From: an uncultured Acidobacteriota bacterium
GTDB lineage: Bacteria > Acidobacteriota > Thermoanaerobaculia > Multivoradales > SZUA-115
NCBI GenBank assembly: GCA_963805975.1
Contig: CAWDVR010000001.1
Span: 224,001-288,000, forward strand
Length of the DNA: 64,000 nt
Direction: 5' to 3'
Shown in pieces: positions 800 through 26,005 of this stretch. How positions within the stretch are numbered: position 1 is the stretch's first letter; each line of letters begins with the position of its first letter. The translations under genes and the position numbers were made by a program. A model generated the notes under the pieces. The model was given only the letters and a program-made list of their open reading frames with translations, was not told the origin of the DNA and ran no database searches.

Positions 800-1063
800 C
801 TATCGCACGCCATCCGCCTCGGGGTCGCGGGCATCCGGACCGGCAGATTCTGCATCGGGGTCCGGTTGCGGCGTGCCGATCTTCGTGGGCGAAAAGGAGG
901 GTGGGTCACTGGCCGGGAACGACTCGTACGAAGCCTCTTCCACCGGGTCCTCCGGGTCCACCCGCGGGCCCTTGGGTGGCTGCCTCTCGTTCAGGGTCTC
1001 CTCGTCGGCCAAAGGATCGAACCCTGCGGGTCCGGTGGGCGCGGTGCGGTCTCGATCACTCAT
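800..1063 (-). CDS. small acidic protein with a VEEASYESFPASDPP motif
   Basis: ATG at 1063 with an AGGAGG RBS. The EASxESFPASDPP motif recurs in small uncharacterised bacterial proteins. A sigma54 box lies upstream. Confidence 0.75.
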   Translation of the reverse strand: MSDRDRTAPTGPAGFDPLADEETLNERQPPKGPRVDPEDPVEEASYESFPASDPPSFSPTKIGTPQPDPDAESAGPDARDPEADGVR

Positions 1064-1119
1064 CAGCTTCGTCCTCCTGGAAATGGGCTTCGGTATCGAG
1101 CCAGCCGAGAGGTACTGAG

Positions 1120-1135
1120 CGCAAGGGGTGTGCCA
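1120..1135 (-). promoter_or_regulatory. sigma54 -24/-12 promoter
   Basis: Minus strand reads TGGCACA-CCCC-TTGCG, about 57 nt upstream of the ATG at 1063. Confidence 0.6.
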
Positions 1136-1164
1136 GGGCCCGAGCCTTTCGCGCCGGGGCGCGT

Positions 1165-2214
1165 TCAGTGCTCGCGGCTGACGACGTAGAGCGCCATCTG
1201 CAGGAGGAACCGCTTGTCTTCCGAGTCCGGCACGTCCGCGAAGGCCGCGAGGCCCTCGGCCAGGGCCGCGGCGGCGAGCTGGCGCGCCGCGCTCCGCGCG
1301 TGCTCGAGGCTGCCCGATGCCGCCATCCGTGCCAGCAGCCACCGCACCTCGTCACCGGTCCTCGCGGCGCGCGGCTTGGCGAGGAAGCTCTGCACCTTCT
1401 CGCGCTCGGCCGGGTCGAGGGTCTGGAGCAGGTGGATCAGCATCAGAGTCCGCTTGCCCTCCCAGAGGTCCCCGGCGATCTCCTTGCCGTAGCGCTCGAA
1501 GCTCCCCGAGAGGTTGAGCAGGTCGTCCTGCACCTGGAAGGCAGCGCCCAGGTACCAGCCGAAGCGGTGCAGCCGGTCGAGGTCGCCGTTCCAGCCGGCG
1601 ATCAGCGCACCGGCGCGGCACGGATAGATGCAGGTGTACCAGGAGGTCTTCTTGAGGCACATCCGGTAGTAGTCGTCGGCCGTGAGATCGCAGGCGTTGT
1701 CGCGGATCCAGGCCAGCTCGAGCGCCTGGCCCTCGAGCGTGTGGCGGAGCATCTGCTGGGTCTCGCGCACGATGGCCTGCGCGCGGCTGGGGCCCAGGAT
1801 CTCGTGGTTCTCGAGCAGGCGCGAGAGGGCCGCCAGGTTGAGCGCGTTGCCGACGTTGACCGCGATGCCCACGCCGTGCTCGGTGTGCAAGGTGGGGCCG
1901 CCGCGGCGCGACTCGCTGCCGTCCTGCACGTCGTCGTGCACCAGGAAGGCGTTGTGGAAGAGCTCGATGGCGACCGCGGTGTTGAGCGCCTGGTGGAGGC
2001 TGCCGCCCAGCGCCTTGCAGGTGGCGAGGCAGAGGGCCGCCCGCAGGCCCTTGCCGGACCTCTGCGGGTAGGATGGCAGGAGGTCGTAGAGGTAGGCCGG
2101 GCCTTCCCGGGGAAGCCCCGCAAGGAGCGCCTGGACCGCGAGGCCCCGGTAGCCGTCGAGCACCGCCTCGACCTCCCTCCGGACCTCGCGCTCCGGCACC
2201 GGCGCCGATCTCAT
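1165..2214 (-). CDS. polyprenyl synthetase (trans-isoprenyl diphosphate synthase, GGPP synthase-like)
   Basis: GKGLR, first aspartate-rich motif LVHDDVQDGSESRRG, GQALEL, KKT, second motif FQVQDDLLN. Confidence 0.92.
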   Translation of the reverse strand: MRSAPVPEREVRREVEAVLDGYRGLAVQALLAGLPREGPAYLYDLLPSYPQRSGKGLRAALCLATCKALGGSLHQALNTAVAIELFHNAFLVHDDVQDGSESRRGGPTLHTEHGVGIAVNVGNALNLAALSRLLENHEILGPSRAQAIVRETQQMLRHTLEGQALELAWIRDNACDLTADDYYRMCLKKTSWYTCIYPCRAGALIAGWNGDLDRLHRFGWYLGAAFQVQDDLLNLSGSFERYGKEIAGDLWEGKRTLMLIHLLQTLDPAEREKVQSFLAKPRAARTGDEVRWLLARMAASGSLEHARSAARQLAAAALAEGLAAFADVPDSEDKRFLLQMALYVVSREH

Positions 2215-2702
2215 GTGGGGCGGCTCGCCGCGGCCTTCGCGCGGGCCCGGGGGCGGGCCGCCGCCTTGCGCGCGCCGCTGGGGCGCCGGGGCTCGGCGGG
2301 CTGGAGCAGGCGGTTCACCAGCTCTGGCGCCAGGTTCACCAGGTTGAGAACGGTGTCGAGCACGCCGTGCGCGTCTTTGAGGAAGCGCTGGACCAGCTCG
2401 TCCGTCTCCTGGGACTTGAGCTCGTCGAAGCGGGCGCGGGTCATGTCGACGAGCTCGTGGCCGGTCGTCCGGAAGCGCGAGACCGTCTCTTCGAAGTCGG
2501 CGGGATCGAGCTTGCGCTCCTCCCGGAAGCGCTTCTCGGCCCTCTGCACGGCCGCGAGGCCGAAGGCGAGCTCGGTCTCGAGCACGGCCGCCGCTTGGCG
2601 GATCACGTCGGTTGCACCGGCTCCGAGCCGGGAGAGATCGGGTCGCCGGTCCGCCGCGGATCGGCTGGAGGCGCGGGTCTTGCGCTGGGTGCGGGTGGGC
2701 AT
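2211..2702 (-). CDS. hypothetical helical protein translationally coupled to the polyprenyl synthetase
   Basis: AAGGAG RBS; 4-nt ATGA overlap with the downstream gene; basic low-complexity termini flank an amphipathic core. Confidence 0.7.
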   Translation of the reverse strand: MPTRTQRKTRASSRSAADRRPDLSRLGAGATDVIRQAAAVLETELAFGLAAVQRAEKRFREERKLDPADFEETVSRFRTTGHELVDMTRARFDELKSQETDELVQRFLKDAHGVLDTVLNLVNLAPELVNRLLQPAEPRRPSGARKAAARPRARAKAAASRPT

Positions 2703-2824
2703 GGTGGTCTCCTTCTGAGGCCGAGCTGGTGATGGGCCGCTCCCGTGACAGGCGTGCGGCGAGGGGAGTTCGTTACGGGTTCGACTTCAATTCGAACACC
2801 ACCAGCCTGCCGGCACCGCACGCT

Positions 2825-3715
2825 TCAGGTGGGTCGCGGCTGGCCTCCGAGCTCCGCGATGGACTGGTCGATCCACTCCAGGTACTGGTCCAGGCGCACG
2901 CAGATGGTGCCGTCGCCGCACTTCGTCGCATCCGGATCGACGGCGCGCGAAATGATCCCTGCCGTGCGAAAGCCGTCGCCGGCCTTGAGCAGCACGGGGC
3001 CACCACTGTCCTTGAGGCAGGCGTCCCCATCGTCCGAGACCAGGGGGTCTCCGATCACGAACTCGAGGCCCGCGAAGCCGAGGGTTCCGTCACTGGGATT
3101 CAGCCTGATGGTCACCTCGGCGCTCCGCTTGACGCCGAAGTTGCCATTCTGATCGTGCCCGAAGCCGACGATCAGAAAACCCGGGGCCTGGTCGATCATC
3201 GGCTTGGGCGCGATGGGGAAGATCGGGACGTCCGACACCTCCTGGCCGAGCCTGATCATGCCGATGTCGTTGGCAAACGGCCCCCCTACATCGAACTGAC
3301 CATGGAGCTTGTGCTGGTTTGGCATCAGGGAATGGCGGCTTCCGCCGACGTCCTCGAAGAACATGCCACCGGTGAGGCCTTGCCTGATGCAGTGCGCAGC
3401 CGTCAGGGCAATGTCCGGGCTGATCAAGAACCCACCGCCCCCGAAGGTCGAGAGATTGTGGGTCAGCGTCAGGCCGAGGGTGCCGCCGAATCCCCGGGTC
3501 GGCAGGCCGTGGACCGTTGCGGTCCCTTCCGCGGCGCGCCTGATGATCTGGAGGAATTGCTGCTGGTCGGTGGAAGTCAACAGCTCTGGAAGGTTGACCC
3601 TGAACTTGGTGTGCGACATCGACTTGAAGTGCGATATGACGAGTGGGGCGTCCTCTCCGCCCTCCCGCAGAGCCTCGAGGGCAACGTCGGCAATCTCCTG
3701 GCGCAGATCGCTCAT
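2825..3715 (-). CDS. trypsin-like (S1) serine protease with an N-terminal pro-region and no signal peptide
   Basis: Catalytic triad motifs LTAAHC, NDIGMIRL and DACLKDSGGP; GGGAG RBS. Confidence 0.85.
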   Translation of the reverse strand: MSDLRQEIADVALEALREGGEDAPLVISHFKSMSHTKFRVNLPELLTSTDQQQFLQIIRRAAEGTATVHGLPTRGFGGTLGLTLTHNLSTFGGGGFLISPDIALTAAHCIRQGLTGGMFFEDVGGSRHSLMPNQHKLHGQFDVGGPFANDIGMIRLGQEVSDVPIFPIAPKPMIDQAPGFLIVGFGHDQNGNFGVKRSAEVTIRLNPSDGTLGFAGLEFVIGDPLVSDDGDACLKDSGGPVLLKAGDGFRTAGIISRAVDPDATKCGDGTICVRLDQYLEWIDQSIAELGGQPRPT

Positions 3716-3726
3716 CTCATGTCTCC

Positions 3727-4596
3727 CTAGAAAGTACCGGGTGGGCAGGCAGCACTGCTGCCGGTGAAGCCGCCGGTGCTGTTGAGGTAGACGGGGATCG
3801 GCAGGTCGAGACGCGAGGGCTGAGTCGTGGAGAGATCGAGCAGCTCATAGAGCCAGAGGAGGTCGTACGCCGCATCGAGAGGTGGAAAGGGCACCTCGTG
3901 ATAGTTCGATAGGCAGGTGACGACGGGCCTCAGGGCCGTGCCGTTCGCATCGCGGTCGGGGCGAAGCAGGATCGACGCTGCGGAGGCCGAGCGGATCTCG
4001 ACCGGTCGGGTGAGATCGTCGGCCCGCAGCACGAGCTGCTCGGCGATGAGGCTATGAGGGTTCCCCGAGCTCGTGCCCTTGGTATTGTGAGTGCGGAAGT
4101 CGATCTCCAGAGGTTCCAGCCCGGCGAAGCTCAGCCGCAACGTCTCGAGCGCGCCCTGTGTCACGCGCAGCCGTGTCGTGACCGCCGAGTTTGGAACCGC
4201 CGCGAAGCAGAGCGGACTGATGGGAGCTGGAACGAGAGAGGAGATCCGGGGAGCCTCGGCCAAAGCGCCGCGTTGAAACGACGCGGCGCCAGGAAGGTCG
4301 AGAGTCAGGTCCTCGCCTTCGAGGTTGCAGATGCCGACCTCCTCCCCCGAAACCCCGGGGAAGACACGTTTGGGGCTCCGCGGAACCACGCCTTGACGAA
4401 TCTGTTGGGACATCGAGTAGCTGAGGCGGGGAAAGTGTGGACGCGGCATGAGCGGCTCGAGGCCGTCCGCGAAATCGGCCTGGAAACGTGCGGGGTCGGT
4501 GGCGTTCACCAGCAGGACGGTTGCGCCCGTGTCGTCGAACGTGAACACGCACAGACCGGTGAAGACCATCTCGAAGTGATACGGCTCTAAATCCAT
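3727..4596 (-). CDS. hypothetical 289-aa protein between the CHAT and trypsin genes
   Basis: GAGAGG RBS; 19-nt gap to the CHAT stop and 11-nt gap to the trypsin start; protein-like composition (FEMVFTGLCVF...SSAACPPGTF). Confidence 0.75.
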   Translation of the reverse strand: MDLEPYHFEMVFTGLCVFTFDDTGATVLLVNATDPARFQADFADGLEPLMPRPHFPRLSYSMSQQIRQGVVPRSPKRVFPGVSGEEVGICNLEGEDLTLDLPGAASFQRGALAEAPRISSLVPAPISPLCFAAVPNSAVTTRLRVTQGALETLRLSFAGLEPLEIDFRTHNTKGTSSGNPHSLIAEQLVLRADDLTRPVEIRSASAASILLRPDRDANGTALRPVVTCLSNYHEVPFPPLDAAYDLLWLYELLDLSTTQPSRLDLPIPVYLNSTGGFTGSSAACPPGTF

Positions 4597-4615
4597 GGTT
4601 ACCTCTCTTGGTATC

Positions 4616-7600
4616 TCATTCTGCGCCGACCGTCACGAACCCTGCCCAGTACCTGGGCGAGGCGAACGGCGAGTCGGAGAAGAGCATTTCCAGTTGCGCC
4701 TGGCGCAGGGCTGCGCTCGGAGTGAGCCCGTGGCGGAGACGGTCGTGGAAGGCAGTCACCAACGTTTCCGTGGCACGGTCATCGATGTTCCATAGATTGG
4801 CAGCCACGGTGGGCACGCCGGCGGCGAGGAAGGCCCCTGCCAGCCCGGAGATGGTCTCGCGGCCGCGAGCGCCCGAGCTCAGAGACCGGCACGCCGCGAT
4901 CACGGCGAGGCGCGTCTCGGTGAAGCGAGCGGCTGCGATCTCCTGCCCCAGGAGGAGCCCTGAGTCCTCGGGCCCCGACGGCCGGAAGTAGAGCCGGGCG
5001 CGATGCGGTGCACGGGCGTCGTCCCTGCCATGCCCGGCGAAGTGGACCACTTCCGCACGCCGGCCGGCGTCGAGGAACGCGGTCCGCGTCGCCGCGTCCG
5101 CGACGAGGAGCCGGTTCAGCGGGTAGAGGGAGCTCACCGCAGCCGCTTCGCTCTCCACCCTCGGCAGCCATGGCTGATCGGGATGGTTGGCCCCCACGGC
5201 GAGGACCGAGGAGGGCGGTGTCGCGCCCATCGCACCGCGCCTGGCCCGCGCCGCAAGGTACGCCGAGGCGCTGGGGGCGATCGTGATCTGGTGGTCCTCG
5301 ACGAGGTAGCGCTCTCGTTCCGGGTCGAAGAGGGCGGCGAAGGGTACCCGGCCCAGGAATCGATCCGGGACGACGACCAGGGACTGGCCGGCCGGCAAGC
5401 GCTCGGCGATGGGCCCCAGGAGCAGGCTCCAGAGCGCGGCCGAGGCTGTCCGAACCGTCGGCTCGTCCGCCTCGACCTCGATGGCGCGGCGCAGCCGAGT
5501 CACCTGGCGCTCGAGGTCCTCCGCGGAGATCCTGGTCTCGAACCGCCGGCTCTGGCCCTGGCGCACCTGCCAGACGACCAGCCGGTCGGGCAGGGCGGCG
5601 AACTCGATCAGGTCGGTCCCCCTGTCCAGTTCGCGGGTCACCCGTTCGAGGCTGACCAGGTGCTCGACGCCGAGGCGGAGAGGGTCCGAGGCGGTCAGGA
5701 GGTCGAGGAGGACCCTGGCGCGCGACTGCTCGGCATATCCGAAGGCTCGTGCGTCCCCGCCGGGCGAGGTCAGCTCGAGCTCCAGCAAAGTATCGAAGGC
5801 CCGCTGCGCACCGTCGAACGCCGAGGCCCGCATCACTTCGTCGCGCACCTCCCGGCGGATGGCCTCCTCTTCGGCGATCGAGGATCGCAGCGCATGGATC
5901 GCCGCCTCCCGGTCACCGGCCGCGAGGCTGGCGAGCGCCCGTGCGGAGTCGAGCCGCGGGAGCTGGAAGCGGTAGCCGAGAGCGATCATCTCGGGCCGCG
6001 CCCGGGCGAGGTCTTGTTGCGCGGTCTCGGGAGCCTCGCGCAGCAGGCCCTCCGCTGCGTAGAGGTCGACGGTCGCCGTGGTGCGGCGTCGCAGCCAGGA
6101 CTCGCCGATCTCCCCTGCGCTCTGCCGGGCCCGCCGGAAGCTCTCCCGTGCGGCAGCGGTGTGATTGCTCTCGGCCAGCAGGTGGCCCTTCTGTAGCGCG
6201 GCCTCGGCGCTGCCCAGGGCAGTTTGCCACCGCACGGCGTTGGCCTCGAGCTCCTGCACCCACGGCTGCGCGGCGGCGAAACGCTTCTCGACGACCAGTT
6301 GCTCGACCGACGAATAGAGCGCGGCGTGCAGGCGCTGGTAGTCGCCGAGGGAGGCGAGGTCATCGAGGGCTCCGATGCGGACTGCCCAGGCCTCCTCCAC
6401 CTCGCCGAGCTTGCTCAGCGCTTCCGCTATCAACAGCTCGACGAAGGCCGCGGCCCGGGGCCCTTCGGAGGCCAGCAGATGCGCCCGGGCGCGCCGGAAG
6501 TGCTCCAGTGCCCGCTCGTAGCGGTTCTGGGTCTCCTCGGTGGTCCCCAGCATCCACTCGATGCGGGCCAGCAAGGCAGGCTGGCGATCCGCCAAGGTCA
6601 CGGACGCGAGCCAGGACAGCTCGCCGGTGGCGGTCCGGGGGTCGGACCGATGGAGGCAGACAGCGTGATAGAGGAGGGCCCAACCCGCCAGCGGCGAGCC
6701 GGCGCTCCTCAGGTCCTGGGCCGCCTTCCGCAAGAGCGCAGTCTTCTCCTCCTCGGGTCCGAAGGCTCGGTAGGCGACCATCCCTCGCCCGTAGAGCCGC
6801 AGGCCTTGCAGCAGGAGCCGACGGGTCTCTCGAGAGGTCTCATCGGCCCGGTCGAGGGTGTCCTGAACGGTCCCATCATGGGTGGCCGCAGCGAGGGCTC
6901 GGCCGAGAACGCGGAGCATGACCGTCTGCCGGGCGGCTTCTGCCGCCTCGCCTCGAAGCGCGGCCTCGGCCCACTCGGGCAGGAGCTCTTCCTCGATCCA
7001 CAAGCGGGCGAAGGTCGGGTAGGTCTCGACGATCCCGGTGGCGCTCGCCAGGTCGCCCTCCTCGGCGGCGTGCCGCAGGCGGGCTTTTCCCTCGCTCTCC
7101 CAGCGCTCGAAGAGCGTGGGTCGTCGCAGCTCTTGCAACTGATCCTGGGCGACGTCGGACCAGCGCGGTTCCGGCTCCACCTCCAGGTAGCGGTCCCACG
7201 CGAGCTGCGCCGAGGTGGTCAGCGACAGCCGGGTCAGGGCGAGGGCGTAGTTGAAGAGCACCTCGGGCCGATCCGGCGCGGCCTTCAGGGCCCACTGGAG
7301 ATGCTCGAGAGCCTCGAGAAGATCCACCGGCCGGGCTTGGAGGTGGGCTCGCTCGACGAGGAGGAACGCGAGGTTCGAGCGTGCGGCAGCGCTGCCGGGG
7401 CTTTCGAAGACGATCCTCTCGAGGCTCTCGATCGACCCGTCCAGAGCACGAGGCGAAGGCCGGCTCCCGAGGCGTCGCCGGTTGGGGCCAAGAGGGTCTG
7501 ACAGTGCCGCGCCGTCGAGATCCATCCAGCGTCCACTGGCAGCCTGCTCACCGACAGGCTGCACGGAGGTGCGTTGGAGCGGAGGCCGGAGCTGGAGGAA

Positions 7601-7738
7601 CAGGCAGGCACCCGTGGCGGCCAAGGTCAGCAGGACCGCCCTGGGCATCATCGAACCCAAATAGTTTCCGAGGATGGCCGGCAGGCTAGCATGGCCAGGG
7701 TGCGCTCGCACTGCGTCGGTAGGCGTTGGATGAATCAC
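4616..7738 (-). CDS. TPR-CHAT (caspase-HetF) domain protease; start uncertain (7738 or 7651)
   Basis: N-terminal hydrophobic segment, TPR-like repeats (PEVLFNYALAL), AEQSRARVLLDLL, VVVPD...PFAAL, catalytic His in HFAGHG, catalytic Cys in IAACRS, LWNIDD, C-terminal PRYWAGF. Confidence 0.9.
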   Translation of the reverse strand: MIHPTPTDAVRAHPGHASLPAILGNYLGSMMPRAVLLTLAATGACLFLQLRPPLQRTSVQPVGEQAASGRWMDLDGAALSDPLGPNRRRLGSRPSPRALDGSIESLERIVFESPGSAAARSNLAFLLVERAHLQARPVDLLEALEHLQWALKAAPDRPEVLFNYALALTRLSLTTSAQLAWDRYLEVEPEPRWSDVAQDQLQELRRPTLFERWESEGKARLRHAAEEGDLASATGIVETYPTFARLWIEEELLPEWAEAALRGEAAEAARQTVMLRVLGRALAAATHDGTVQDTLDRADETSRETRRLLLQGLRLYGRGMVAYRAFGPEEEKTALLRKAAQDLRSAGSPLAGWALLYHAVCLHRSDPRTATGELSWLASVTLADRQPALLARIEWMLGTTEETQNRYERALEHFRRARAHLLASEGPRAAAFVELLIAEALSKLGEVEEAWAVRIGALDDLASLGDYQRLHAALYSSVEQLVVEKRFAAAQPWVQELEANAVRWQTALGSAEAALQKGHLLAESNHTAAARESFRRARQSAGEIGESWLRRRTTATVDLYAAEGLLREAPETAQQDLARARPEMIALGYRFQLPRLDSARALASLAAGDREAAIHALRSSIAEEEAIRREVRDEVMRASAFDGAQRAFDTLLELELTSPGGDARAFGYAEQSRARVLLDLLTASDPLRLGVEHLVSLERVTRELDRGTDLIEFAALPDRLVVWQVRQGQSRRFETRISAEDLERQVTRLRRAIEVEADEPTVRTASAALWSLLLGPIAERLPAGQSLVVVPDRFLGRVPFAALFDPERERYLVEDHQITIAPSASAYLAARARRGAMGATPPSSVLAVGANHPDQPWLPRVESEAAAVSSLYPLNRLLVADAATRTAFLDAGRRAEVVHFAGHGRDDARAPHRARLYFRPSGPEDSGLLLGQEIAAARFTETRLAVIAACRSLSSGARGRETISGLAGAFLAAGVPTVAANLWNIDDRATETLVTAFHDRLRHGLTPSAALRQAQLEMLFSDSPFASPRYWAGFVTVGAE

Positions 7739-7836
7739 TCCCAGAGTTAGACGGACTTGACATGGACCGATGCCGCCGCTGGGTCCGGCACTCTTTTTTC
7801 CGTACGGATACAGGTTTGGCGAAAGGAGAACCTCCG

Positions 7837-10143
7837 ATGACGCAGGACGATGTTCGTGGCCCGCAGATTCCGCCAGGCCAACCCGGCCTGCTGCCCTTCC
7901 TCCCCCTGCTCTACGTCGCCTGGGCAGACGGTGACCTCGCGCCCGAGGAGCTGGAGCTGATCCGCTCGCGAGTGGCAGCGGAGGGCCTGGCGCCGGCCGT
8001 CTCCACCGGGCTCGCCCGATGGCTCGACCCGGAAGACCCGCCGTCCGCGACGGATCTCCAGGAGCTTCTCGCCGCGATCCGCCAGGGCTTTACCGGGAAG
8101 GCGGTGGGGGAGAGGCGGAGCCTCGCCGGCCTCGGCCTCGAGCTGGCGCGGGCCAGTGGGCAGCGGGTCGACCCCGCCGAGGAGCGGGCCCTGGCGGTGC
8201 TCGAACAGGCATTGGGGCTGGCGGGTGTCGAGGTCTCGGGGCCGCTCCTCGGCGAGCCGGCACCGGCCGTGTCCGAGCCGCCCGCGGAACCGCGGCCGTC
8301 CTTCGACCGCGAAGCGATGCGCCGGCTGCTCGACGGCGAGCACGCTCCGCTCCGCGACGAGGTCCGCGACCTCCTCGGCCGGCCGGAGATGCGCTTCGAG
8401 CCCGGCCTGCCGACCGAGATCTACCGCGAGCGGGTGCTGGCGGCGCTGCGCGAGCTCGCGGCCCGCGGTTACGGCGCGTTCGGCTTCCCGCAGAGCGCCG
8501 GCGGCGCCGGGGACTACGGCCGTTTCATCGCCGTCTTCGAAACGCTCGCCTGGGGCGACCTCTCGCTGCTGGTCAAGTTCGGCGTGCAGTTCGGCCTCTT
8601 CGGCGGCAGCATCGTGCAGCTCGGCACCGCCGGCCACCACGACCTCTACCTGCGCCGCGTCGCGAGCCTCGATCTGCCCGGCGGCTTCGCCATGACCGAG
8701 ACCGGGCACGGCTCCAACGTCTACGACCTCGAGACCGTGGCGACCTTCGACCCGGAGACCGACGAGCTCGTGATCGCGACGCCGCACGCCGGCGCGCGCA
8801 AGGACTACATCGGCAACGTGGCCCGCGACGGCCGCATGGCGGCGGTCTTCGCCCAGCTCGTGGTGGGTGGCGAGCGCCAGGGCGTACACGTCTTCCTGGT
8901 GCCGATCCGCGGCGAGGATGGAGGGCCTCTTCCCGGTGTCACCATCGAGGACTGCGGCGAGAAGCTGGGCTTGAACGGCGTCGACAACGGCCGGCTCTCT
9001 TTCGAAAGCGTGCGCGTGCCGCGCACGGCCTTGCTCGACCGCTTCGGCCAGGTGAGCGCCGGTGGCCGCTACACGAGCGCCATCGCCAGCCCCGCGAAGC
9101 GTTTCTTCACCATGCTGGGCACGCTCGTGGGTGGGCGTTTGAGCGTTTCCCTGGCCTCGGTCTCGGCGGCCAAGCTGGGGCTTGCGATCGCCGTCCGCTA
9201 CGGCGCCCGGCGCCGGCAGTTCGGCCCCGAGGGCGGGGCGGAGGTGCCGATCCTCGACTATCTCTCGCACCAGCTCCGGCTCCTGCCGCGGCTCGCGACC
9301 ACCTACGCGCTGCACTTCGCGGCGCGCCCGCTGGTGGCGCGCTTCCTCGCCACGGGCGAGGAGGATCGGCGGGAGCTCGAGGGCGAGATCGCCGGCTTCA
9401 AGGCCCTGGCCTCGTGGCACGCCACCAGCACGCTGCAGGAGTGCCGCGAGGCATGCGGCGGGCAGGGCTATCTGGCGATCAACCGGCTGCCCGCGCTCCG
9501 AGCGGACAGCGACATTTTCACCACTTTCGAGGGCGACAACACCGTGCTACTCCAGCTCCTCGCCAAGAGCCTCCTGACCGGCTACCGCAAGCAGTTCGGG
9601 GCGCTACGCTTCTCCGGCCTCGTGCGCTACCTGGCGGCCGAGGCAGGCACGGCGCTCTCCGAGCTCAACCCGGTGGTGACGCGGCTGACGGACGAGCGCC
9701 ATCTGCGCGATCCCGACTTCCTGCTCGGCGCTCTCGCCTGGCGTGCCGAGCACCAGCTCGCGACCGCGGCGCGCCGCATCAAGAAGCGGCTGGACGGCGG
9801 CGTGGACGCGTTCGTGGCGGTCAACGAGTGCCAGGACCACCTGATCGCGGCCGCCCGCGCGCACGTCGAGAGCCAGATCGGGAAACGCTTCGCGGCGGCC
9901 GTCGAGGCCATTCCCGATCGCGACCTCTCGGCCGTGCTGCGCAGGCTTTTCGAGCTCCACGCGCTGTCGCGCATCCACGCCGACCGCGGCTGGTTCCTGG
10001 AGCACGGCTACCTGGAGGCGGGCAAGGCCAAGGCGATCCGCAAGCTGGTCGCGAAGCTCTGCACCGAGCTGCGCCCGGACGCCGTGGCCCTGGTCGACGC
10101 CTTCGGCATCCCCGACGCCTGCCTGGCGCCGATTGCGAGATAG
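7837..10143 (+). CDS. acyl-CoA oxidase/dehydrogenase with an N-terminal TerB-like extension
   Basis: AAGGAG RBS before the ATG at 7837; FAMTETGHGSN, KLGLNGVDNG, CREACGGQGY, TFEGDNTVL; N-terminus LLYVAWADGDLAPEE. Confidence 0.88.
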   Translation: MTQDDVRGPQIPPGQPGLLPFLPLLYVAWADGDLAPEELELIRSRVAAEGLAPAVSTGLARWLDPEDPPSATDLQELLAAIRQGFTGKAVGERRSLAGLGLELARASGQRVDPAEERALAVLEQALGLAGVEVSGPLLGEPAPAVSEPPAEPRPSFDREAMRRLLDGEHAPLRDEVRDLLGRPEMRFEPGLPTEIYRERVLAALRELAARGYGAFGFPQSAGGAGDYGRFIAVFETLAWGDLSLLVKFGVQFGLFGGSIVQLGTAGHHDLYLRRVASLDLPGGFAMTETGHGSNVYDLETVATFDPETDELVIATPHAGARKDYIGNVARDGRMAAVFAQLVVGGERQGVHVFLVPIRGEDGGPLPGVTIEDCGEKLGLNGVDNGRLSFESVRVPRTALLDRFGQVSAGGRYTSAIASPAKRFFTMLGTLVGGRLSVSLASVSAAKLGLAIAVRYGARRRQFGPEGGAEVPILDYLSHQLRLLPRLATTYALHFAARPLVARFLATGEEDRRELEGEIAGFKALASWHATSTLQECREACGGQGYLAINRLPALRADSDIFTTFEGDNTVLLQLLAKSLLTGYRKQFGALRFSGLVRYLAAEAGTALSELNPVVTRLTDERHLRDPDFLLGALAWRAEHQLATAARRIKKRLDGGVDAFVAVNECQDHLIAAARAHVESQIGKRFAAAVEAIPDRDLSAVLRRLFELHALSRIHADRGWFLEHGYLEAGKAKAIRKLVAKLCTELRPDAVALVDAFGIPDACLAPIAR

Positions 10144-25978: not shown

Positions 25979-26005
25979 TGTCGATCTCGCGGTCTCCCGT
26001 TCGAC
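25979..26005 (+). promoter_or_regulatory. ECF42-type promoter upstream of the YciI/DGPF gene
   Basis: TGTCGA - 17 nt - CGAC, preceded by an A7 tract; matches the TGTCGA / CG(A/T)C motif recalled for ECF42. Confidence 0.65.

What the first reader, a model, noticed from the sequence alone, without database searches (positions are those of the whole stretch)
2825..7738. TPR-CHAT protease, unknown 289-aa protein and trypsin-like zymogen: candidate proteolytic cascade
Seen: three co-oriented genes separated by only 19 and 11 nt, each downstream gene with its own RBS; the two downstream genes look more AT-rich by eye than the flanks. The CHAT domain keeps its His (HFAGHG) and Cys (IAACRS). The S1 protease keeps H/D/S, lacks a signal peptide, and has about 60 extra residues before TVHG, which sits where the mature IVGG N-terminus would be. 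Established: bacterial CHAT/caspase-like proteases often cleave products of adjacent genes (gasdermin loci, Csx29-Csx30), and S1 proteases are activated by N-terminal cleavage. Inference: a TPR-sensed CHAT cleaves the unknown protein and/or activates the trypsin, forming a defence, cell-death or signalling module. The middle protein matches no family I recognise.
Basis: partly seen in the sequence, partly recalled or inferred. Interest (0 to 1): 0.8.

Follow-up and report, generated by a model that had tools for sequence, protein, structure and literature searches.

The report
Exported caspase-like protease, partner, swappable protease
A likely exported caspase-like protease gene sits directly before the gene for an undescribed partner protein in many uncultured Acidobacteria, often followed by (or fused to) a second protease, so the three probably form a protease relay at the cell envelope, though no cutting or binding has been shown.

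Summary
Observation confirmed: three tightly packed minus-strand genes with intact catalytic motifs. The middle protein (X) is a real, undescribed family (236 clusters; 76 of 201 genomes of the order). Its confident model (pLDDT 94.6) matched no solved fold, so nothing supports a gasdermin. X keeps four near-invariant polar residues (His54, Asn231, Asp/His245, Cys284). The core is the CHAT-X pair: CHAT lay directly upstream in 29 of 30 and, out of sample, 23 of 24 loci. In this genome only the 5 CHAT loci of one subtype have X. The third gene is a swappable protease (S1, S8, C14, C39/C70, M23), and seven X-trypsin fusions exist. The CHAT is related to periplasmic DdvA of Myxococcus and looks exported, while X and the trypsin lack signal peptides (one relative's X has a Tat-type signal). 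This compartment mismatch is the main objection. Best reading (0.35): an envelope protease relay in which CHAT cuts X and frees the second protease. No defence link was found. DdvA's operon has a similar layout; homology of its unknown gene to X is untested.

The parts
4616..7738 (-). TPR-CHAT protease of the DdvA-related subtype (P0001); start may be ATG 7651
   Evidence: Pfam CHAT E 4.6e-63; profile of 27 relatives hits PDB 8rot, E 1e-27
7589..7639 (-). Hydrophobic segment, residues 34-50: predicted signal peptide or membrane anchor
   Evidence: Hydropathy 2.0 over 17 residues; similar N-proximal segment in 21 of 28 X-linked CHAT loci
5030..5032 (-). CHAT catalytic His903
   Evidence: Invariant in alignment A6; coordinates
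4889..4891 (-). CHAT catalytic Cys950
   Evidence: Invariant in alignment A6; coordinates
3727..4596 (-). Partner protein X (P0002), undescribed mostly-beta family, no signal peptide
   Evidence: No Pfam, NCBIfam or PADLOC hit; model pLDDT 94.6; 236 clusters
4435..4437 (-). X His54, near-invariant
   Evidence: 153 of 154 homologs
3904..3906 (-). X Asn231, near-invariant
   Evidence: 150 of 154 homologs
3862..3864 (-). X Asp245 (His in most homologs)
   Evidence: His 127, Asp 26 of 154
3757..3786 (-). X loop 271-280, least confident part of the model; candidate cleavage loop (inferred)
   Evidence: Block pLDDT 74 against 86-99 elsewhere
3745..3747 (-). X Cys284 in the C-terminal CPP motif
   Evidence: 153 of 154 homologs
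2825..3715 (-). S1 trypsin-like protease (P0003): predicted three-helix pro-region 4-62, triad His108/Asp150/Ser237, Asp231 at the Asp189 pocket position, Lys235 in place of Gly193, no signal peptide
   Evidence: best structural match Z 18.4, rmsd 2.8, 183 aligned

Best explanation
The three genes form a recurring cassette whose fixed core is a likely exported DdvA-type TPR-CHAT protease and its dedicated partner X, with a swappable second protease in third place; it most likely works as a protease relay at the cell envelope. Shown by sequence: the linkage, the intact dyad and triad, the X-trypsin fusions, the pro-region on the trypsin, and X's conserved His/Asn/His-Asp/Cys set. Inferred steps: (1) the TPR region senses a signal outside the cytoplasm and switches on CHAT, as proposed for DdvA; (2) CHAT cuts X, most plausibly in the loop before the C-terminal Cys segment or, in fusions, between X and the pro-protease; (3) this frees or unmasks the second protease, here predicted to cut after Arg/Lys, which amplifies the signal; (4) X and the trypsin reach CHAT by an export route not visible in their sequences. 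The biological output is unknown.
For: CHAT directly upstream of X in 29 of 30 loci (the 30th has CHAT, a first X, a secreted gene, then this X), 6 of 7 new phylum-search loci and 23 of 24 out-of-sample loci. In G000 the 5 CHAT loci with the subtype N-terminal domain all have X next; the other 16 CHAT-hitting frames have none. CHAT and X distances correlate over 33 pairs (Spearman 0.53; kinship contributes). Seven X-trypsin fusions (P0024, P0028, P0029, P0031, P0033, P0037, L008). Same triplet in L006 and L007. Out of sample, 10 of the 19 downstream ORFs scanned (from 24 loci) are peptidases: S1 x3, S8 x4, C14, C70, M23; more. Three X-linked CHATs carry zf-HC2 before the membrane segment, which fixes a periplasmic CHAT by analogy with DdvA. 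One X has a Tat-type signal (L092:3393-4421); 119 of 120 of the largest subfamily have a CxxxC loop. Precedents: CHAT activating a second protease (10.1101/2023.06.23.546230, abstract); CHAT cutting a loop before a C-terminal peptide (10.1101/2021.06.07.447441, passages).
Against: None of 154 X proteins has an N-terminal extension of 8 or more residues, and P0003 has no hydrophobic leader, so the compartments do not obviously match. No P1 residue is conserved in X's loop or before the trypsin's predicted mature start. Residue 16 of the trypsin is Thr here and Ile/Leu/Val in 10 of 16 relatives. Gly193 is Lys here and Gly in only 3 of 9 standalone relatives. X also occurs without a CHAT gene in the stretch fetched (L095, L126, L129, L130). 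Four of the five G000 cassettes have no recognised protease after X. X's conserved residues look like an active or metal site, which a plain adaptor would not need.
Confidence: 0.35

Rival explanations
1. X is a keeper: an inhibitor, chaperone or maturation factor that binds the CHAT and/or the second protease (securin-like, recalled analogy) and holds them inactive, possibly in the cytoplasm before export. No relay.
For: Near one-to-one pairing with one CHAT subtype. No signal peptide fits a cytoplasmic guard. N-terminal fusion to trypsin resembles a pro-domain. The frameshifted CHAT copy on C6 has the one X that lacks His54 and Cys284 in alignment.
Against: One fold would have to guard unrelated protease clans (S1, S8, C14, C39). 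The Tat-type X and CxxxC loops point outside the cytoplasm. Orphan and tandem X genes exist.
Confidence: 0.25
2. X is itself the enzyme or effector: a new Cys/His/Asn hydrolase or a His/His(Asp)/Cys metal protein, perhaps held shut by its C-terminal Cys segment until a protease clips it. The third gene is accessory.
For: His54, Asn231, His/Asp245 and Cys284 are conserved at 0.99, 0.97, 0.99 and 0.93 over 212 sequences, independent of any partner Cys (Cys16 in 26 of 57). Weak covariation links the segments around 13, 232, 245-251 and 281-283. X occurs alone and in tandem.
Against: No known enzyme fold matched. It does not explain the protease enrichment in third place.
Confidence: 0.2
3. The CHAT acts as in the DdvA model, as a site-1 protease that releases an ECF sigma factor (in trans where the anti-sigma domain is missing). 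X and the trypsin are co-transcribed cargo, not substrates.
For: Homology to DdvA over linker and CHAT. L094, L096 and L097 are zf-HC2-TM-TPR-CHAT, and L096 has a sigma-70 gene upstream. The ddvA operon also holds an unknown gene and a putative C25 peptidase (PMC11506125, Fig. 1 legend).
Against: P0001 has no zinc anti-sigma domain, and no sigma gene appeared among the filtered long ORFs from 20 kb before the window to position 26000. Cargo would not be expected to stay immediately behind one CHAT subtype across a class.
Confidence: 0.12
4. One reading: X is a gasdermin-like pore former or death effector in an anti-phage module.
For: Similar size, mostly beta, flanked by the same protease families as bacterial gasdermins, with a loop before a short C-terminal segment (10.1101/2021.06.07.447441 passages). 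The cassette sits in a variable genomic slot.
Against: No conserved N-terminal Cys. No PADLOC hit for CHAT or X. The CHAT appears exported. No defence genes were recognised next to the cassette.
Confidence: 0.05

Closest known systems
DdvA-DdvS of Myxococcus xanthus (PMC11506125, PMC6061681; PDB 8rot/8rw5)
   Same: Membrane segment followed by a linker, TPR region and CHAT with His-Cys dyad. Best natural PDB match of the CHAT profile (E 1e-27, linker and CHAT; the 991-aa chain is labelled only 'CHAT domain-containing protein' and I identify it as DdvA by length and His862/Cys907). The operon is ddvS, ddvA, unknown protein, putative C25 peptidase.
   Different: The window's CHAT has no zinc anti-sigma domain and no adjacent sigma, CBASS or CRISPR genes were seen. 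The paper reports DdvA-like anti-sigmas only in Myxococcota and one Comamonas. Whether the unknown ddv gene is an X homolog could not be tested.
SAVED-CHAT / PCaspase cascade of Haliangium ochraceum (10.1101/2023.06.23.546230, abstract read)
   Same: A CHAT protease that cleaves and activates a second protease encoded nearby.
   Different: Cytoplasmic, triggered by cyclic oligoadenylate through SAVED, CRISPR-linked; no SAVED here, and the second protease varies.
Craspase Csx29-Csx30 (type III-E CRISPR; listing and passages in PMC11506125)
   Same: TPR-CHAT with a dedicated neighbouring partner; non-polar P1 residues reported.
   Different: Csx29 model scores 13 bits against a cut-off of 300; cytoplasmic and RNA-triggered; no Cas7-11 seen here.
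Bacterial gasdermin-protease loci (10.1101/2021.06.07.447441, passages read)
   Same: A mostly-beta protein of similar size next to CHAT, C14 or subtilase proteases; cleavage in a loop before a C-terminal peptide.
   Different: X has no conserved N-terminal Cys, and its conserved Cys is C-terminal; no structural match was returned.
S1A trypsin-family zymogens
   Same: His/Asp/Ser triad, Asp194 and Asp189 equivalents, Cys191-Cys220 equivalents, N-terminal extension ending near Gly19.
   Different: No signal peptide, Thr at 16, Lys at 193, no Cys42, helical pro-region of about 60 residues, invariant C-terminal GxxPRP tail.

Membership tests
DdvA-type TPR-CHAT anti-sigma factor | TPR-CHAT with His-Cys dyad, homologous to DdvA | tested here: met
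DdvA-type TPR-CHAT anti-sigma factor | Single membrane segment placing TPR-CHAT outside the cytoplasm | tested here: inconclusive
   One hydrophobic segment at 34-50; hydropathy and motif inspection only, no signal-peptide predictor available
DdvA-type TPR-CHAT anti-sigma factor | N-terminal zinc anti-sigma domain | tested here: not met
   No zf-HC2 in P0001; present in relatives L094, L096, L097
DdvA-type TPR-CHAT anti-sigma factor | Cognate ECF sigma gene adjacent | tested here: not met
   Neighbours are an acyl-CoA oxidase-like gene and a polyprenyl synthetase operon
DdvA-type TPR-CHAT anti-sigma factor | Dimer; CHAT lacking the three-helix motif | not tested
   P0001 was not modelled alone
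Craspase Csx29-Csx30 | Csx29 family score | tested here: not met
   NF041237 13.1 bits against cut-off 300
Craspase Csx29-Csx30 | Type III-E CRISPR context | tested here: inconclusive
   No cas gene recognised among flanking ORFs; no dedicated cas search was run
SAVED-CHAT/PCaspase cascade | SAVED sensor fused to CHAT | tested here: not met
   Pfam scan of P0001 shows TPR and CHAT only
SAVED-CHAT/PCaspase cascade | [quoted passage not shown] | not testable with these tools
   Needs biochemistry
Bacterial gasdermin | Gasdermin fold | tested here: inconclusive
   No structural match of any kind was returned for X; absence does not exclude a family
Bacterial gasdermin | Conserved N-terminal palmitoylated Cys | tested here: not met
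   Only Cys16, in 26 of 57 and 30 of 154
Bacterial gasdermin | Protease gene adjacent | tested here: met
S1A trypsin-like zymogen | Catalytic triad and trypsin fold | tested here: met
   (Z 18.4, rmsd 2.8, 183 aligned)
S1A trypsin-like zymogen | Pro-region ending at an Ile/Val16-type N-terminus that pairs with Asp194 | tested here: inconclusive
   Asp236 invariant; Thr at 16 here, Ile/Leu/Val in 10 of 16 relatives
S1A trypsin-like zymogen | Gly193 in the oxyanion hole | tested here: not met
   Lys235 here; Gly in 3 of 9 standalone relatives; activity may be altered, untested

The most novel reading that the evidence does not exclude
X is a new protein fold with its own His/Asn/His-Asp/Cys active site that acts as the plug-in hub of a caspase-triggered protease cascade outside the cytoplasm: exported CHAT clips X, and X unleashes whichever protease (trypsin, subtilase, papain-like, caspase) is attached or adjacent. 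It would be a bacterial envelope counterpart of animal extracellular cascades, and the unknown gene behind ddvA could be its first culturable example and the missing DdvA substrate.
Probability: 0.2. Interest if true: 0.85.

Novelty: new variant of a known kind. Interest (0 to 1): 0.62.

Why it matters
Periplasmic TPR-CHAT proteases have one characterised member, DdvA, whose trigger and substrate are unknown. This cassette gives a whole subtype a dedicated partner, so substrate and activation become directly testable with three small genes. X is also a confidently modelled protein with no structural match and a candidate active site, a good target for structure work. If the unknown gene in the ddvA operon is an X homolog, the test moves into a genetically tractable organism.

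Tried and rejected
Complex prediction of CHAT residues 340-1040 with X and zinc: no verdict (score 0.01, mark 0.32, controls not folded); it says nothing either way, and residues 1-339 were left out. Fold searches for X: Foldseek PDB best E 0.014 with TM about 0.12, BFVD none at E<=0.001, VIA-align 0 of 48161 and 0 of 997 chains at Z>=2. The same wide search gave the trypsin model 116 chains at Z>=8, so the tool worked, but a missing match does not prove a new fold. PDB sequence search with the X profile: two hits at E 0.29 and 0.51. ESM Atlas: no usable hit for two X proteins. X not found in plasmids or viral contigs (close-subfamily patterns only). P0035 (986 aa, repetitive) was dropped from the 28 representatives as spurious, and P0044 (fragment) from alignments. 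The trypsin pro-region matched no effector-associated domain in Pfam (one sub-cut-off PrmC_N hit) and does not detectably match the fusion linkers (E>=0.16); it was not folded alone. PADLOC LmuA hit on the trypsin (E 5e-4) read as a generic protease match. No sigma-70 promoter or terminator pattern in 2600-8000. Covariation analysis was noisy (Neff 144). The M. xanthus ddv locus could not be obtained; the main supplement PDF of PMC11506125 was too large to read and may describe the unknown gene. Expression data were not examined. Literature searches with no hit: 'CHAT domain'+'Thermoanaerobaculia', 'Thermoanaerobaculia'+'caspase', 'CHAT domain'+'Acidobacteriota'+'peptidase'. The listings showed no paper on this cassette. 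The library lacks most subscription papers.
Full report
Observation. The three ORFs, their spacing (19 and 11 nt) and catalytic motifs are as described. The two downstream genes have GC near 0.645 against 0.70; 5.5% of 6085 genomic windows are as low. The host is probably a Thermoanaerobaculia acidobacterium: the record holding the closest genomic relative is titled so, and the named X proteins are Thermoanaerobaculia or Acidobacteriota. In the same-genus genome G001 the matching interval holds other genes and no CHAT, X or trypsin hit, so the cassette occupies a variable slot.

Protein X is a family. A single-sequence search found 7 close relatives at 47-59% identity and 28 representatives at E<=0.001, one of them spurious. 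A 57-sequence profile found 236 clusters, with only 7999 candidates scored. It hit 76 of 201 genomes of the order and 9 of 301 of the phylum; an earlier 28-sequence profile hit 23 of 151 of the class. These are samples of related genomes, not independent counts. No Pfam, NCBIfam or PADLOC model matches X. The AlphaFold2 model is confident (pLDDT 94.6, pTM 0.92), mostly beta, with its weakest block at 271-280. Structural searches returned nothing usable (see Tried and rejected). Besides structural Gly and Pro, four polar residues stand out: His54 (153 of 154), Asn231 (150), His/Asp245 (153) and Cys284 (153). Cys284 has no conserved partner Cys. Weak covariation suggests that the segments around 13, 232, 245-251 and 281-283 touch. 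I infer an active or metal site; geometry could not be measured.

The fixed core is CHAT-X. CHAT lies directly upstream on the same strand in 29 of 30 loci examined from the class search, two of them from G000, in 6 of 7 new loci from the phylum search, and in 23 of 24 loci not used to build the locus-derived part of the profile (these were the best-scoring hits). In G000, 5 CHAT loci have the subtype's N-terminal domain and all 5 are followed by X; the 16 other CHAT-hitting frames are not (the domain profile included four of those five CHATs). Pairwise identities of CHAT and X correlate over 33 pairs (0.53, permutation maximum 0.37), which shared ancestry partly explains. Exceptions exist: no CHAT in the stretch fetched for L095, L126, L129 and L130, and tandem X genes in L054, L127-L130 (L127-L130 were hand-picked for tandem hits).

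The third gene is a swappable protease. The closest relatives keep CHAT-X-trypsin (L006, L007). Three further X/trypsin pairs share a contig length, which only suggests co-location. Six representatives and one locus protein are X-trypsin fusions. Elsewhere the gene after X encodes S1, S8, C14, C39/C70 or M23 peptidases: 10 of 19 downstream ORFs scanned from the 24 out-of-sample loci, and several more. In one family a small lipoprotein follows X, with a C14 protease behind it in the two cases checked. Four of five G000 cassettes have no recognised protease after X. I ran no formal background for peptidase frequency; a few percent of genes is recalled.

The trypsin has a trypsin fold, an invariant triad, Asp at the 189 position (Arg/Lys preference, from established S1 knowledge), a predicted three-helix pro-region and an invariant C-terminal tail. 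Zymogen activation is plausible but not textbook: Thr at position 16, Lys at 193, and no conserved residue before the predicted cut.

Compartment. P0001 has one hydrophobic segment near its N-terminus. So do 21 of 28 X-linked CHAT loci at a 1.7 threshold, many ending in a lipobox-like Cys by eye. Three relatives carry zf-HC2 before the segment. The CHAT profile's best natural PDB match is 8rot (E 1e-27, both the linker and the CHAT domain), far above Csx29-type chains (about 7e-6); 8rot fits DdvA, a periplasmic TPR-CHAT (PMC11506125). In contrast, none of 154 X proteins has a leader, nor does P0003. One X from another class has a Tat-type signal behind a good RBS (L092), and CxxxC loops are present in 119 of 120 members of the largest subfamily. 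These hint that X works outside the cytoplasm, but no export route is shown. This is the main open problem.

Mechanism. I commit to an envelope protease relay (0.35): signal at the TPRs, CHAT cuts X, the second protease is freed. Rivals: X as keeper (0.25), X as the enzyme (0.2), sigma-regulon cargo (0.12), gasdermin-like death effector (0.05). Only the genetic linkage, fusions and conserved residues are shown; every biochemical step is inferred.

Comparison with what is known. It works most like DdvA in architecture and like SAVED-CHAT/PCaspase in logic, but the window's CHAT fails DdvA membership on the anti-sigma domain and the adjacent sigma. The ddvA operon is described as ddvS, ddvA, an unknown protein and a putative C25 peptidase, the same layout; homology is untested. 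Papers seen: PMC11506125 (abstract, Introduction, passages, table S7 part 1 of 5 and searched rows; main supplement PDF not readable); PMC6061681 (passages, supplement rows); PMC8195603 (passages); 10.1101/2021.06.07.447441 (passages); 10.1101/2023.06.23.546230 (abstract and outline). No paper on this cassette turned up in nine searches. Earlier AI notes of this scan describe similar cassettes in other genomes; they are not independent support, and they mean the module has been flagged before within the scan.

Verdict. Real, undescribed in the literature searched, a new variant of periplasmic TPR-CHAT systems with a partner of no recognised fold. Interest 0.62.

Noticed in passing
G000:C6:54439-58635 (L023): A paralogous cassette whose CHAT is split over two frames, and whose X is the most divergent and lacks His54 and Cys284 in alignment; possibly decaying together.
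   Followed up: partly
G000:C2:105279-109763, C3:2913-7276, C2:359359-363545 (L020-L022): Three more intact CHAT-X cassettes in the same genome, none followed by a recognised protease.
   Followed up: partly
G000:C2:96056-125318: [quoted passage not shown] The genome has 22 CHAT matches in all.
   Followed up: no
L092:3393-4421 (G255): The only X seen with a Tat-type signal peptide, directly behind a lipoprotein-like CHAT.
   Followed up: partly
L094, L096, L097: DdvA-like zf-HC2-TM-TPR-CHAT proteins followed by X in this phylum; PMC11506125 reported such anti-sigmas only in Myxococcota and one Comamonas.
   Followed up: partly
L095:5594-6556 (G269): Orphan X with very low third-position GC (0.35) and no CHAT within the 12 kb fetched.
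   Followed up: no
L055:6894-7316, L062:7362-7760 and similar loci: A family of about 130-aa predicted lipoproteins with no Pfam match follows X in one host family.
   Followed up: no
window 803-2702 (-): A 163-aa ORF with no Pfam match overlaps the start of a polyprenyl synthetase gene, followed by a 93-aa ORF with no match; no homolog of these three was found in the matching G001 stretch.
   Followed up: partly
window 7837-10143 (+): Acyl-CoA oxidase-like protein with an N-terminal TerB-like domain (Pfam E 3e-5).
   Followed up: no
L009:2060-3205: Gene after X with a papain-like Cys/His pattern by eye but no Pfam hit.
   Followed up: no
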